The position numbers were made by a program. A stretch of DNA of 64,000 bases, from contig NC_083283.1 in NCBI RefSeq assembly GCF_963506605.1, positions 59,706,001 through 59,770,000 of the forward strand. The letters are read 5' to 3'. This document shows, in pieces, positions 3,001 through 42,000 of the stretch; position 1 is the stretch's first letter; the number at the start of each line of letters is the position of its first letter. Source of the stretch: Zootoca vivipara. Taxonomy: Eukaryota.

Positions 3001-6000
3001 AAATTTTAAGTTAACAGTGCTACATCTATGGCAATTTCACATGTTTCGTTGCAATTGCTATTAAGAAGACATACAGTCCAGAAACTCATGACATATACAC
3101 TGGCAAAAGCCATAAACCATGAGAATAACAAGACTCGAGGGAACAAGACTGACAAAGACTACCCCAAGGGTGACTTTCTTTGATACCAGTAAGTAGATCC
3201 CTAAAGGCAGGGAACTAAAATATAGCAAGCCTAGCAACCAAACTAGGACTCGAATTGAAGTCTGGAAGAGCAAGGATGTACAGTTCCACACTGTCCAGTG
3301 ATGGGGTACAGATGCAACAGAGTCAAAGCTTGTGGGCCTGTAGAATTCCACAACAGGGGTTGAGTTCAGGGTTGGAGGGCTCTCTCTCTGAACCTCCATG
3401 ATAGTTATAACCAGACAGTTGGAGGAAGTGTGAGAGGGGCTAACGAGAGAGGCCAGCCTTTTGGGAGTCAGCAGGAGTTCTGTGGGATTGTCTGGTAGGC
3501 ACTTCTTCACCTTGCCTCCATAAGCCAAATTTACAAGGATATTGTTGTCATCAGGAAGACTACTGACCTCATCATCAGGCAGGCATGTTTCAAACCTACA
3601 GAATGGGCAAACAATGACTCCCTGAGGAGAATCCCCAAAATCTATGATCTTGCAAAGACATTTGGCACATACTCTGTGGCAACACTCCAGTACTTTAGGT
3701 TTTCTCTGTCTCATGTTATAGCGGTTGTAACAGATTTTGCATTCAAGCTCATCTGAGCCCTGGGACTCCACAGTATCTTCTGGAAGTAGGCTGGTCATTT
3801 CTTTTCAATGTGCTTTAGACTTGTGGTGATGTCAGACAAAGACTGTTGCTTTGTCTTTCTTTCTTTGTGAAAAGAAAGATGTTTAGAGTTCCCTTCAGAT
3901 TACCACAGTACTCAAATCAATCAGGGATGGGAGGAGTACCAACAGTCATAATTTTCAACCTCTTACTAGGACTATCTGCTTTTTTCTTCAGTGTCTTTCA
4001 TATACATAGCTTTCATATAATATATAGTTTCTGTAGAGGGGAAGAAAAATAAATACATGAATTCAATTAAAGATGTTCCATTTTATATTTTTCAAGGTTT
4101 TGCTCTTTCACCCTCATAACAACTTTCAGAGTAAGGTTAGGCTGAGAAGTGATGACTAGATCAAGGTAAGCAGTTAGCTGTCCCAAGGCTGAGTAGGTAT
4201 TTCTACCCATGTCTCCCTAGTTGTTATTGTTGCTATTATTTGATTTCTGTTTAAAGACTGCTTAGGAAAAGGCAACGGAGCTGAGGTGGGTAAATGCAAA
4301 CAACCAAACATAGGGTTGTATCCAGGAAACTTATACTGTTCATGAAAATACTTCTGCTTGTGCAATGGAACTTCCTCTCCTCCCCCTGCACACCACCTTA
4401 CAACATTCTTCTGCAGTTTTCCCAAACTCTCTGGAGCAGATTGAGGGATGGAGTGCGTGTGGAGGTGTGAAAGAAGTCCTGTTGCACAAACATGTATTGC
4501 ACAAATGGGATGCAACCCATGGGCACCAATTCTTAAAGTTATAGAGCAGATTTTTTTTTTATAAAAAAAACCCTATGGTATATGAGTTAAAAATATTCAT
4601 TTAATAGTTTCATATATATTCACATTATATTTATATATAATATGTACATAATATGATGCTTATAATTCTAGGTGATAAGCAAATAACTAAGAGAATATCA
4701 ATGATCAGAAGCTCAATCGATTGTGAAGAAGGAAAGAAAAGAATCCAAATCAGTTTAAAATAAGTTAAACCAAACATATGGTTGACAATTATCTTGAAAT
4801 TTCAAGTTCTAGTAACTTAAAAACAAACTACTTACTTTGATCAATTTCTTAGCATATCATTTCTTACACCTTTTATAATATGTTAACTTATTGAAAATAA
4901 CTATATTCCAGATTTTCATATACCACTACATTATATATGGTCTATTAGATTTTCAATTACCCAATATTACTAGTTTCATTGCTATCAATAACGTTGTATG
5001 AGTTCTAGGTCTACATCATTAACAGTTCCTTGTGAACAACCAAGTAATATTTGCTTTGGATTAATGCTATATTCCACCCAATTAAATCATTTATTACATT
5101 TAAGATCTCCAGAAGGGCTTTACTTGTTCTTTATCTGTTCTGTATCCTGCTGAAGATTACAACTTTAAAAAAAGAAAAAAGAGTAAGTGCCTAATGCCAC
5201 CGGTACTGTATTTTGCAATCTCAATCTTACCACAGACCCTGAATGGGTATGGGGCAGGGACTAAAGAACAACTTTAGAAGATTCCTCATGTGGGCAACCA
5301 CTTCTTTAGATGATATCCCAGTCTCATTGCTATCTGCAAAACAAAACAATTCATTTACAATGGGTCCTTTCATCTAGAGCTGTGTCTTGTAATATGTGTA
5401 TCTGTGGCAGACCAGCACATGGGTTAATTGGAGCTGTGGAATTGACAACCATAACAGGCACCCTGGACTACATGCTCCCCTCCCCTTTCCAACCCATTGC
5501 ATTTTCCACTCTCTTGATGTGACATGGATTCAGGCAGTCTGACTATATAAATTGCAATAAACAAATTCATAAATTTGGAAGCTCCCCAAGGTACAGTAAG
5601 TGCAGGACAGGAGTCATTCTCTAACTTCCATGGCTGTTTCTCTTACACCTGGCAGAAAATCCCAATGTTTAAGATAGCAGAACCAGTCATTTTCACTAAG
5701 TGCCAAAAAGTATATTCTTCCAGCACAGAATGACCTCATAACCAATAATTCCGTCTTTCACACGATTTTGCTGCGATCGAAGTGCATTTAAGAGCTGGAT
5801 TTAAATAGTAAGATGGAAATTTTGGATAATCTTTTGTAAGCCACTTTGGTTGGCCTATCCTGAAACGCAGAGTATAAGTACTTTCAATAAACACACATAC
5901 ATATATCCCATACATATGTGCCATGCTGCTAAACCATACTCTGCAAATGTCCCAGAAAAAATGGGACATCCAATTTTTTCTTGCGAGAGAACAGTGGCCA

Positions 6001-39000: not shown

Positions 39001-42000
39001 ACAGCCCGCCCCTGACAGCCTCTTTTCTAACTGGCTGCTGCCTGTTGCTAACCCACGTGACCGCCTTTCGCCTCGCGCCGTCTGTATGTCTGTCTCCCAG
39101 AGGGAAGGCTCTGCATGGTGCATGCAGCCCGCTTGCTCTCCTGCGGCTGTCGCCGGCCAGCCTCTATTCAGTATTGGGAGAAGTTCAGGCGTTTGGTCTC
39201 TCACTCGCACAATACCTGATTTAGCCGAGCCCTTGCAAAAGCACGCCGCCGCAGGGAAGCTGCTGTGCTCCTTGTGGACGGGAGATGGCAATGGAGTTCC
39301 TCCTTGGTTCAACCAACCGAGGTGGTTTCCCTCCGCCCCTTCCACTCCACTCCGTTTTTTTATTTTTTTTATTTTAGCCCCTCAGTAATAAAATCGTAGG
39401 GTCGATTCATTCATTCATACCACTTCTCCCACTTAAATATGCTTCGAGATGGGCGCGAACCAGCTGTGCAAAACATCCTTGATCGCTGGAAAGTTTTTAT
39501 TCGGAATCTGAATGCAGGTGTACCATCGCTCTGTACCTGCAACGCAATCCCCGAGGAAGATAGTTCAGGCTGTCTCCTGACTTTATTTTTCTTTGTTTGA
39601 GTGGCGTCCTCTTGGCTCCGTAGCTCTGAAACCCATAGACACAACCCCTGGCGCTGACCGTGTGAATTTAGCTACCTGTTGGGGTCAGAATCTCCCCTAA
39701 AAGTTAAAAAAGGTGCACCTGCATCTAGCTTTGCTCCAGGGCAGACAAATAGCAGGGATGTCTAGGGTTGGCTTATGCTTAGCTTTGCTTTTTCTTGACA
39801 TTCTTATTAGTTACATTACATATTTTAATGGAAGTTTTTGTATGTAAGAAAGATTTTTAAACACGCTCTGCCACTATTTTTCTTTTTTTAAAAAACAGAT
39901 GTTTTTCTGAAAATGGCAGATCTCCACAGTTAAGTATGTTGATTTTTGTACATTGTTTTGAATTCCCTTTTCTTTTCCTTTATTAGTTTAATTTTTAAAA
40001 TGTATTTATTATATTCTGTATGTATTTAAAGAAAATAATAAATACACAATAAATAATGTTCTGGTAAGCTCCATTTTAGGTCTGGGTGAACAGAAAGGTC
40101 TTCACCTGGCCTCAAAAAGACCACAAAACTGGTGTCAGGTGAATCTCCCTGCCAAGGCTATTCCGTAACCTGGGTGCCAGTACTAAAAGGTCTCATTCCC
40201 TGGTTATTTCCCTCCATTCTTCATTTGGTGGGGGTCTGGAAGTAGGGTTTGGAAAATCCTAAGGTTCAGAGATGGTCTTTCTGGTAGCCTGATCTTAAGC
40301 CTTTTGTGGTTTTAAAGGTTAAATCCAACACCTTCTACTGCACCTGGAAGCGGAATGAAGCCAGTGCAGCTGCGAAAGCAAAAGTGTACTATGGTCAAAC
40401 TGTCCGGTGCCAGGTTCTGTTCACTGATGAGAAAGTTAGTTGCCTCTTTAAGAGCGCTTGGTCGCTACAGCATTGGGGAAGACTGTGGTTCCATGGGAAC
40501 TTCTGGCTGGAGTCTTCAGGTGTCAGGGCAAAGAGGTGCTGGCAGAATGGCATCCTCCTGTGTTGAGCTTCCGGGGCAGTGAGGACTCTCATTCTTCTCC
40601 CAAATCCATAGCATTGTCCTCTGAGGAGGAGGAAGCAGACCATGAGGTCATGACTTGACACCATATCGGCACTTGTTAGAGATGGTTATAGGGCCAACAC
40701 TCATCTGCTTGCTCTGTCATGCAGCCAGATTATTATTTTTTCATTCCACATGGAGATGATAACCACTTTCCTCTTCCTCTCTGCTGAAATTCAATCTGGC
40801 CACAGAACAAAGTGTTCAGACAGCCTCATGGCCAGTGCCAGTTGAGCACTGAGCTCACTGTGCAATCAGGACCAATTTTCAGCTGCACAGATCAACCATT
40901 AGTGAATTATGAATGCTGCCTAAAGCTTTAATAAAACAGCTGGTTTCCAGGCTAAAAGAAGCATTAGATAATTACATACAACATTCATTAAAGGTGCATC
41001 TTACAGTCTGACCCTGACTATAATTCCTCACAAACCTACACTGTGCAAATGTAAATTAATTTTTTAAAAGGTAGTGTGGGAAGGTGAAAGATTAAACCCC
41101 ATAATTTTGTACAACTTTAAAATGTGATTGGATGAAAATAGACAAAGGTGTCTAAAAGTCAACGTCTGTGCCATCCATCACAATTATGAGCAAAATGAAA
41201 ACTCAGTTAGTGCCACTTCCTTATAGTAAATGCCACTTAAAAGCAGAGTCAGAATCATAGAACTGTAGAGTTGGAAGGGACCACAAGGGTCATCTTGTCT
41301 AGCCCCCTGCAATGCAGGAATCTTTTGCCCAAGGTGGGGCTCAAATCCATGACCCTCGGATTAACAGTCTTATGTTCTACCAACAGACCTATAGCAAGTT
41401 CATTTTATTTATTGACATAAGTATAAACCACACTTTACATAAAAATACAGCAAGGCGGTACAGAACATACAAAACTACAGTAACTTTGATCAAACATCAG
41501 TAAAAGGACAGATTAAAGCTGATCAGGGAAAATAAATTCATGTTTCTATTTATTTTTATATGAATAAATATTTTGACTGCTGAGTGTGAACCCTACATCC
41601 AGGTCAGAGGAGCATTCACAGAACAATGCACACCTGGTATTAAGCACATGATGAGACCCTAAGGATAGGAATGTGCCTTCTTATGCATCTTACAATGTAC
41701 AAGGGAATCCACATTCACATTTACTGTCTCAGGTGTCCATTTCTTCACAGTTTGTTGTGCATGGCTATAGGTGGATTGTGACTTACATGTTTACTCCAGA
41801 TAGCGGGTATTAAAGCATTAATTGTATGCCACAAAGGGCACTCTCTAACGGATACATTACACTAGCACTTGGATTTGTGATCAGCAACTTCTACCCATCC
41901 ACCACATTGTAGTAAATAATGTTTGTAGTGATGTTCCATCTGCATCACTCACAACGTTGCATGCTAATGCTCAACCCATGTTTGTGAACGAGCCTGCATG

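What the first reader, a model, noticed from the sequence alone, without database searches (positions are those of the whole stretch)
3061..39350. CD83 appears nested antisense inside RNF182, and the genes may be interleaved
Seen: RNF182 is on the minus strand (CDS 3061-3798, UTR exon 5231-5333) and CD83 exons 3-5 are on the plus strand (23788-26247). The only non-TE CpG-island-like region lies beyond CD83 at about 39 kb and carries minus-strand splice signals facing RNF182. Known: in human 6p23, RNF182 and CD83 are separate same-strand neighbours, and RNF182 starts at a CpG island tens of kb upstream of its coding exon. Inference: here CD83 exons 3-5 sit inside an RNF182 intron on the opposite strand. 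If CD83 exons 1-2 are left of the window, the RNF182 coding exon is also inside CD83 intron 2. CD83 is NF-kB-induced and antagonises MARCH E3 ligases, and RNF182 has been reported to ubiquitinate p65/RelA, so overlap could couple an NF-kB target to an NF-kB brake through transcriptional interference or shared enhancers.
[Added by the scan's program, not by the reader: the finding's places include an assembly gap (unread letters, written N; its length is only estimated) at 18641 to 18840. Whether the letters on both sides are continuous or in frame is not known: test that first.]
Basis: partly seen in the sequence, partly recalled or inferred. Interest (0 to 1): 0.72.

Follow-up and report, generated by a model that had tools for sequence, protein, structure and literature searches.

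The report
Lizard RNF182 and CD83, opposite strands
In this common-lizard sequence the RNF182 coding exon and the last three CD83 exons do lie on opposite strands 20 kb apart, but an assembly gap hides the start of CD83, so whether CD83 sits inside RNF182 cannot be told from the sequence.

Summary
The gene calls are right. An intact 245-aa RNF182 ORF lies at 3061-3798 (-). CD83 exons 3, 4 and 5 lie at 23788-24004, 24094-24191 and 26158-26247 (+). Exon 3 is 100% identical to NCBI's CD83 of Zootoca vivipara.

CD83 exons 1-2 are in none of the 63,800 read bases. A profile control finds exon 3 at E=3.9e-33; the exon 1-2 profiles find nothing. The NCBI model also lacks them and starts with read-through intron. 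The nearest place for them is the 200-N gap, 4.9 kb upstream of exon 3.

The nested reading needs RNF182 to start right of CD83.
- For it: the 38.9-39.6 kb CpG island is real, unique in the window, and G-rich on the minus strand.
- Against it: the two "splice signals" there are chance-level. 230 and 52 minus-strand donor-like sites upstream of 5333 score at least as well.

One inversion of the whole RNF182 gene gives a head-to-head pair. Nesting needs a more complex rearrangement.

My odds: divergent pair 0.4, nested 0.35, assembly error 0.15, interleaved about 0.03. The verdict is "cannot tell". Even if nested, this would be an ordinary kind of gene arrangement.

The parts
3061..3798 (-). RNF182 complete CDS in one exon (245 aa plus stop). 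It has a C3HC4 RING pattern at C20...C67 and two hydrophobic segments at about 184-206 and 208-236.
   Evidence: ORF. 91-94% identity over 100% coverage to named RNF182. The exact protein is in the public collection. Cys/His pattern and Kyte-Doolittle windows. Pfam RING hits fall below the curated cut-off: 22.5 and 21.4 bits against 27.9 and 27.3.
3799..4030 (-). Probable 5' UTR part of the RNF182 coding exon, ending at a strong acceptor (exon starts at 4030).
   Evidence: Polypyrimidine tract plus AG read. PWM score 12.7, and sites this good occur 0.09 per kb per strand. There is an in-frame stop two codons before the ATG. No transcript evidence.
5231..5333 (-). Unverified.
   Evidence: Acceptor 10.1 and donor 8.2 bits, each found 0.55 per kb per strand. 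Such a pair is expected by chance about once in the 15 kb upstream, by my own estimate from those rates.
18641..18840 (.). Assembly gap, 200 N, true size unknown. It is the nearest place for the missing CD83 exons 1-2.
   Evidence: Nothing bridges it. GC rises from 0.34-0.36 on the left to 0.48-0.55 on the right.
19141..19720 (.). The CpG-richest stretch of the window (GC 0.57-0.69), built of nested inverted and direct units of about 95 nt, with a 136-nt hairpin at 19460-19595. It could be a promoter-like island or a foldback repeat; this is undecided.
   Evidence: Hairpin of -105.5 kcal/mol, z = -15.3. No second copy in the window. GC skew is about 0. A minus-strand donor at 19091 scores 8.6.
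23788..24004 (+). CD83 exon 3, the second half of the V-type Ig domain. It contains the GTYAC motif.
   Evidence: 100% identical to NCBI Zootoca vivipara CD83. A profile built without lacertids gives E=3.9e-33. Borders read.
24094..24191 (+). CD83 exon 4, stalk plus transmembrane segment.
   Evidence: tblastn of P0121 and P0122, 94-97% identity. Borders read.
26158..26247 (+). CD83 exon 5 coding part: cytoplasmic tail of 29 aa plus stop. The first poly(A) hexamer downstream is at 26989.
   Evidence: tblastn, 88-91% identity. Borders read. The tail matches the reptile consensus. Hexamers listed.
38900..39600 (-). Unique CpG island (GC 0.51-0.60, o/e 0.63-1.0) with CCAAT-, GC-box- and E-box-like motifs and G>C on the minus strand. 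It is a candidate promoter of a minus-strand transcript. Its owner (RNF182, a non-coding RNA, or none) is not shown.
   Evidence: No repeats, and no copy elsewhere in the window. The motif names are recalled. Donors at 39216 and 38893 are chance-level.
51720..52270 (-). GC-rich stretch (GC up to 0.66, CpG o/e only 0.24-0.52) with a consensus minus-strand donor at 51867. It is either a second candidate first exon or a transposon.
   Evidence: Donor score 11.2; 3 minus-strand sites in 5334-64000 reach that score. The ends resemble a squamate MITE that I recall. Only an 11-nt inverted pair supports this, which is chance-level.

Best explanation
The window comes from the common lizard, Zootoca vivipara. 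It holds two intact, ordinary genes that are transcribed away from each other.
- RNF182 has its single coding exon on the minus strand at 3-4 kb.
- CD83 has exons 3-5 on the plus strand at 23.8-26.2 kb.
- CD83 exons 1-2 (signal peptide and first half of the Ig domain) are missing from the read sequence. They most likely lie in the unread stretch at 18641-18840, 4.9 kb upstream of exon 3.

On this reading the two genes are a head-to-head (divergent) pair whose 5' ends meet in or beside the gap. Starting from the mammal-like same-strand order, a single inversion of the whole RNF182 gene would produce this layout.

Shown: gene identities, strands, exon borders by homology, and the absence of exons 1-2.
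Inferred: that exons 1-2 are in the gap, that RNF182 starts left of or at the gap, and the inversion.
For: Identities and strands.

Exons 1-2 absent:
- tblastn of full-length Podarcis CD83 gives a best N-terminal hit of only E=2.4.
- Profiles of exons 1-2 and of exon 2 find nothing. The best E-values are 0.098, 1.6 and 1.3. The 0.098 hit has no Met and is merely hydrophobic.
- The exon-3 profile built from the same non-lacertid proteins scores E=3.9e-33.

The NCBI Zootoca model XP_060134204.1 begins with read-through intron from 23644. The annotators' assembly therefore also offered no collinear exons 1-2.

CD83's five-exon layout in mouse matches exons 3-5 here (PMC7181454, passages read).

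GC and CpG rise directly right of the gap, and a good minus-strand donor lies at 19091.

The mammalian order is Cd83-Rnf182-Mcur1 (PMC5774710, one passage). That both mammalian genes lie on the same strand is recalled. One inversion of whole RNF182 yields the observed layout (my own reasoning).
Against: - No promoter-like sequence free of SINE-like repeats lies between 5.4 and 18.6 kb. RNF182's start would have to be in the gap or in the palindromic 19.14-19.72 kb stretch.
- That would make the lizard RNF182 locus at most about 16 kb. The human one is about 56 kb (recalled).
- The 39-kb island is a better-looking promoter and is G-rich on the minus strand.
- The gap is written as 200 N. If it really is that short, it cannot hold two exons and an intron.
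- No transcript data were available.
Confidence: 0.4

Rival explanations
1. Nested, the core of the reader's view. RNF182 is transcribed from the 39-kb CpG island, or from the 51.9-kb GC-rich stretch, leftwards through the whole CD83 gene to its coding exon. CD83, with exons 1-2 in the gap, then lies antisense inside a long RNF182 intron.
For: - A unique CpG island at 38.9-39.6 kb meets the usual criteria. It has no repeat structure.
- The minus strand is G-rich from 38.4 to 39.7 kb.
- No CpG island free of SINE-like sequence lies at 5.4-18.6 kb.
- The resulting span of 36-49 kb resembles the long 5' region of mammalian RNF182 (recalled).
- A consensus minus-strand donor lies at 51867.
Against: - The donors at 39216 and 38893 are matched or beaten by 230 and 52 other minus-strand sites.
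- Plus-strand donors of equal score lie in the same island.
- Many CpG islands are orphan or serve non-coding RNAs (general knowledge).
- From the mammal-like order, nesting needs at least two inversions with a broken RNF182 in between, or a three-breakpoint event. Yet RNF182 is 91% identical between lizard and primates, so it is under strong constraint.
- No transcript evidence.
Confidence: 0.35
2. Assembly artefact. The sequences left and right of the N gap are not true neighbours in this orientation; for example, the left contig is flipped. The real order would then be mammal-like, with RNF182 and CD83 on the same strand and CD83 exons 1-2 on the other strand or another contig.
For: - The orientation change and the loss of CD83 exons 1-2 both fall exactly at the gap.
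- Nothing bridges the gap.
- A 136-nt perfect-stem hairpin and nested inverted repeats lie 0.6 kb from it.
- A truncated NCBI CD83 model fits exons 1-2 being non-collinear.
Against: - Recent public assemblies of this species use HiFi reads plus Hi-C with manual curation. The one described in print has contig N50 35.9 Mb and 108 gaps (PMC13560796, passages read). Flipping large contigs is unlikely there.
- I did not determine which assembly the window is from.
- The older assembly was validated with mate pairs and a linkage map (PMC7643610, passages read).
Confidence: 0.15
3. Interleaved. CD83 exons 1-2 lie left of the window on the plus strand, so the RNF182 coding exon sits inside CD83 intron 2 while CD83 exons 3-5 sit inside an RNF182 intron.
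For: Only that exons 1-2 are absent from the window.
Against: - Intron 2 would exceed 23.8 kb, while the whole mouse gene spans about 19 kb (PMC7181454, passage read).
- Collinear exons on the same strand should have been joined in NCBI's model. That model was built when a 90%-identical full-length Podarcis protein was public, yet it starts inside the intron.
- It also needs the nested reading to be true.
Confidence: 0.03

Closest known systems
Mammalian RNF182-CD83 neighbourhood (human 6p23, mouse chromosome 13)
   Same: The same two genes are adjacent; the order Cd83-Rnf182-Mcur1 is in PMC5774710 (one passage). RNF182's CDS is in one exon. CD83 has five exons, with the Ig domain split between exons 2 and 3 (PMC7181454, passages).
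   Different: Here the two genes are on opposite strands, and the CD83 3' exons lie on the 5' side of the RNF182 coding exon. In mammals they are same-strand and non-overlapping; the strands are recalled, not checked by a call.
Host-intron nested antisense genes (for example OMG, EVI2A and EVI2B inside an NF1 intron; recalled)
   Same: If RNF182 starts at 39 or 52 kb, a complete small gene would lie antisense in a long intron of a larger gene.
   Different: No host exon on the far side of CD83 has been shown here.
Head-to-head gene pairs with a shared bidirectional CpG-island promoter
   Same: The two genes point away from each other. The sequence where their 5' ends should meet is GC- and CpG-rich on its readable side.
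   Different: Neither transcription start is visible. The pairing of a brain-enriched ligase with an activation-induced immune gene would be unusual for a shared promoter; that expression pattern is recalled.

Membership tests
RNF182 (E3 ubiquitin ligase) | Full-length similarity to named RNF182 orthologues | tested here: met
   91-94% identity over 100% of the query to RNF182 of birds and mammals. 532 proteins had E<=0.001 among 773 candidates. The exact sequence is present in the public collection.
RNF182 (E3 ubiquitin ligase) | N-terminal C3HC4 RING finger | tested here: met
   The Cys/His pattern C20, C23, C39/40, H41, C44, C47, C64, C67 is present. Pfam zf-RING_5 and zf-RING_2 match residues 19-68, but below the curated cut-offs: 22.5 and 21.4 bits against 27.9 and 27.3.
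RNF182 (E3 ubiquitin ligase) | Two C-terminal hydrophobic (membrane) segments | tested here: met
   Kyte-Doolittle 19-residue windows of at least 1.6 cover about 176-206 and 207-240. No dedicated membrane predictor was run.
CD83 | Second half of the V-type Ig domain, transmembrane exon and short tail (exons 3-5) | tested here: met
   Exon 3 gives E=3.9e-33 against a profile of 10 non-lacertid CD83s. It is 100% identical to NCBI Zootoca CD83. Exons 4 and 5 are 88-97% identical to lacertid CD83.
CD83 | Signal peptide and first half of the Ig domain (exons 1-2) | tested here: not met
   Absent from all read bases on both strands. All 10 other reptile and bird CD83s aligned have them. This is read as missing from the assembly, not from the gene.
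Nested antisense gene pair (gene within an intron of a host gene) | Host-gene exons on both sides of the inner gene, joined in one transcript | tested here: inconclusive
   Only a CpG island with minus-strand G>C skew lies on the far side. Donor sites there are chance-level. No transcript data.
Nested antisense gene pair (gene within an intron of a host gene) | Uninterrupted, correctly oriented sequence between the host exons | not testable with these tools
   A 200-N gap lies at 18641-18840 and nothing bridges it.
Bidirectional-promoter gene pair | Two transcription starts on opposite strands within about 1 kb | not testable with these tools
   CD83's 5' end is not in the read sequence, and RNF182's start is unknown.
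CpG island (GC >= 0.5, o/e >= 0.6, >= 200 nt) | The 38.9-39.6 kb stretch meets the composition criteria and is not a repeat within the window | tested here: met

The most novel reading that the evidence does not exclude
In lacertid lizards the whole CD83 gene has come to lie antisense inside a long RNF182 intron. RNF182 would be transcribed from the 39-kb CpG island through CD83. Induction of CD83 by NF-kB would then interfere with transcription of a ligase reported to ubiquitinate p65, giving a lineage-specific wiring of the two genes. I put nesting alone at about 0.35. The probability given here is for nesting together with a functional coupling.
Probability: 0.05. Interest if true: 0.5.

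Novelty: new member of a known kind. Interest (0 to 1): 0.2.

Why it matters
If the opposite-strand layout is real, it marks a small rearrangement at a conserved vertebrate locus. It could also change how an immune checkpoint gene and a neighbouring ubiquitin ligase are regulated in lizards.

The practical points today:
- The start of CD83 is missing from this lizard sequence.
- The public CD83 protein model therefore has a spurious N-terminus.
- Any claim about overlap of the two genes must wait for transcript data and a closed gap.

Nested and head-to-head gene pairs are both common in vertebrates, so neither outcome would be surprising in kind.

Tried and rejected
- Search for CD83 exons 1-2 by tblastn with three lacertid proteins and with profiles: nothing. 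A weak hit at 41496-41392 (-), E=0.098, has no Met and is only a hydrophobic run, so it was rejected.
- tblastn of the N-terminal extensions of two longer RNF182 models, P0003 and P0001, to find conserved upstream exons: only the known coding exon matched.
- Rfam at gathering score over the whole window: 0 matches. With permissive thresholds over 13-21 kb there were 4 matches. All were below the gathering score, and three of them were miRNA models on the 19.4-19.6 kb hairpins. Rejected as families.
- ARAGORN: 0 tRNA-like genes, so it gave no objective support for my recalled SINE call at 16.45-16.78 kb.
- Tandem repeat search right of the gap: only a 13-nt repeat of about 2 copies and an (AAC)n run.
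- Terminal inverted repeats for a suspected transposon at 51.7-52.3 kb: only 11 nt, chance-level.
- 27 ORFs of at least 110 aa were listed across the window. By eye, apart from RNF182, the CD83 read-throughs and a LINE tail, none looked like a gene. Only the RNF182 ORF was sent to a family search.
- Literature on the order of the two genes outside mammals: three searches found no paper on reptiles or birds.
- Strand skews over 1-kb windows were looked at as a sign of transcription direction. They were set aside because repeats dominate them.
- A joined exon 3+4+5 model was not built or searched. Exon 3 was searched alone, and exons 4 and 5 were placed by aligning database proteins to the window.
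- No vertebrate genome collection was on hand, so gene order in Podarcis, other squamates, turtles and birds stayed unchecked.
- Supplementary files of the two assembly papers were not consulted. They may state the gap conventions.

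
Full report
WHAT IS THERE

The ORF at 3061-3798 on the minus strand encodes 245 aa. It is RNF182. It is 91-94% identical over its whole length to named RNF182 of birds and mammals; 532 proteins had E<=0.001 among 773 candidates. It has the C3HC4 cysteine/histidine pattern and two C-terminal hydrophobic segments. Pfam's RING models match residues 19-68 but below their curated cut-offs. A stop lies two codons before the ATG. A strong acceptor puts the start of this exon at 4030, so at least one non-coding exon must lie further right on the minus strand.

On the plus strand, three exons with AG/GT borders encode the back half of CD83: 23788-24004, 24094-24191 and 26158-26247. 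Exon 3, searched alone, is 100% identical to NCBI's 'CD83 antigen [Zootoca vivipara]' and 92% identical to two Podarcis muralis records; 3 proteins had E<=0.01 among 55 candidates. The window is therefore from the common lizard, not human. I did not build or search a joined exon model.

The exon numbering follows the mouse gene as described in a review (PMC7181454, passages read). Exon 1 holds the 5' UTR and the first 12 aa. Exon 2 holds the rest of the signal peptide and 32 aa of the Ig domain. Exon 3 holds the rest of the Ig domain, exon 4 the membrane segment, and exon 5 the tail.

THE MISSING HALF OF CD83

The NCBI Zootoca model (XP_060134204.1, 182 aa) starts MFFNRTEPLKQ. That is simply the frame upstream of exon 3 read through the intron from an ATG at 23644. 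Podarcis CD83 (192 aa) has a proper N-terminus.

A search with the Podarcis protein returned 22 proteins with E<=0.001 among 65 candidates. I aligned 12 of them. Eleven share the conserved start (MAS..CYQLVFL...) and the first Ig half (..C.EDV.LPC....SWYK); the Zootoca model does not.

- tblastn of the Podarcis protein against the window finds exons 3-5. For residues 1-58 the best hit is only E=2.4.
- I built profiles for exons 1-2 and exon 2 from the 11 aligned proteins other than the Zootoca model, and a second exon 2 profile from the 10 non-lacertids. They find nothing in the six-frame translation; the best E-values are 0.098, 1.6 and 1.3.
- As a control, the exon 3 profile built from the same 10 non-lacertid proteins finds the window's exon 3 at E=3.9e-33.
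- The 0.098 hit has no Met and is only a hydrophobic run.

So exons 1-2 are in none of the 63,800 read bases.

THE GAP

The gap is 200 N at 18641-18840, 4.9 kb upstream of exon 3. No frame, repeat or alignment bridges it. Its flanks share nothing with each other. Continuity, orientation and true size cannot be tested from the window.

GC rises from 0.34-0.36 on the left to 0.48-0.55 on the right. At 0.3-0.9 kb to the right lies the CpG-richest stretch of the whole window, 19.14-19.72 kb, with 31 CpG in 400 nt and GC up to 0.69. It occurs once in the window. It is built of nested inverted and direct units and includes a 136-nt hairpin of -105.5 kcal/mol, z = -15.3. It may be a foldback repeat or part of a promoter island; I could not decide which.

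Three public assemblies of this species are described in print:
- an Illumina/PacBio assembly (PMC7643610, passages read);
- two HiFi plus Hi-C assemblies; the one reported in detail has 108 gaps and contig N50 35.9 Mb (PMC13560796, passages read).

I did not determine which assembly the window comes from.

With 400-nt windows, four places pass GC>=0.5 and o/e>=0.6: 16.4-16.8, 19.1-19.8, 20.3-20.8 and 38.8-39.5 kb.
- 20.3-20.8 kb holds a repeat core found four times in the window.
- 16.4-16.8 kb looks to me like a tRNA-derived SINE, though that is recalled; ARAGORN found nothing.
- The 39-kb island is unique and free of repeats. It carries CCAAT-, GC-box- and E-box-like motifs (the names are recalled). 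It is G-rich on the minus strand from 38.4 to 39.7 kb, which fits a leftward promoter.

So the island is real. It is not the only candidate, because 19.14-19.72 kb cannot be dismissed.

The 'minus-strand splice signals' carry no weight. I scored them with a weight matrix of recalled consensus frequencies. The 39216 and 38893 donors score 4.8 and 7.5 bits. On the minus strand between 5334 and 64000, 230 and 52 sites do at least as well. Plus-strand donors of equal score lie in the same island.

Better minus-strand donors lie at 19091 (8.6 bits) and at 51867 (11.2 bits; 3 sites reach that score). The latter sits inside a GC-rich stretch at 51.7-52.3 kb, which may be a transposon. The proposed exon at 5231-5333 has decent sites, but at chance frequency.

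WEIGHING THE LAYOUTS

In mammals the order is Cd83-Rnf182-Mcur1 (PMC5774710, one passage). I recall both genes being on the same strand, with RNF182 starting tens of kb upstream of its coding exon.

Starting from that layout, one inversion of the whole RNF182 gene gives exactly what the window shows if CD83 exons 1-2 lie in the gap. That is a head-to-head pair: RNF182 coding exon, RNF182 start, then CD83 exons 1 to 5. Nesting CD83 antisense between RNF182's promoter and coding exon cannot be reached by one inversion. It needs two, with a broken RNF182 in between, or a three-breakpoint event, and RNF182 is strongly conserved.

Geometry and composition pull the other way.
- No island free of SINE-like sequence lies between 5.4 and 18.6 kb.
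- A divergent pair would squeeze RNF182 into at most about 16 kb.
- The 39-kb island gives a span like the mammalian one.

I therefore put the divergent pair at 0.4 and the nested reading at 0.35. An assembly error at the gap gets 0.15, because the strand change and the loss of exons coincide with the gap. The interleaved variant gets about 0.03, because collinear exons 1-2 upstream on the same strand should have been joined in NCBI's model.

FUNCTIONAL SPECULATION

That RNF182 promotes p65 ubiquitination is in print (PMC10201958, search listing). So is CD83 opposing MARCH1 (PMC3023131, search listing) and NF-kB sites driving human CD83 (PMC7181454, passage). Nothing in this sequence speaks to a coupling between the two genes.

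COMPARISON AND NOVELTY

Both genes are ordinary members of their families. Head-to-head pairs and intron-nested antisense genes are both common in vertebrates. At most this is a lineage-specific rearrangement, that is, a new member of a known kind.

I found no paper on the order of these genes in reptiles or birds. The public annotation of this species already names both genes.

WHAT REMAINS OPEN
- RNF182's transcription start.
- The content and orientation of the gap.
- The layout in Podarcis and other sauropsids.

None of these could be checked with the collections available here.

Noticed in passing
window 23644-23787 (+): The public NCBI model of Zootoca CD83 (XP_060134204.1) has a spurious N-terminus of 48 aa. 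It is intron read through from an upstream ATG, in place of the signal peptide and first Ig half. UniProt A0A670JWM2 of Podarcis shows a similar intron-derived start, and it also reads through the exon-4 donor.
   Followed up: yes
window 19460-19595: A 136-nt near-perfect hairpin (-105.5 kcal/mol, z = -15.3) lies inside a set of nested inverted and direct units, 0.6 kb right of the assembly gap. Rfam miRNA models touch it only below their gathering scores.
   Followed up: partly
window 7956-8400 and 18945-18989: A LINE tail with an ORF ending ...VHGVTKSRTRLND; it looks BovB-like, but that name is recalled. A 45-nt copy of its end lies in reverse orientation just right of the gap.
   Followed up: no
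window 13389-13620, 18468-18505, 20555-20604, 44142-44216: A short CpG-rich element with inverted 'cagtggtacctcgggtta' ends occurs four times. It accounts for the CpG peaks at 13.4 and 20.4 kb.
   Followed up: partly
window 21965-22303 and 43704-44087: A pair of inverted copies of one repeat, 72-83% identical, one on each side of CD83.
   Followed up: no
window 51720-52270 (-): A GC-rich stretch (GC up to 0.66, CpG o/e 0.24-0.52) with a consensus minus-strand donor at 51867. Its ends resemble a squamate MITE that I recall, so it is either a transposon or a first exon of an unknown minus-strand transcript.
   Followed up: partly
window 21095-21138: A perfect (AAC) microsatellite of 14.7 copies in what would be CD83 intron 2.
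   Followed up: no
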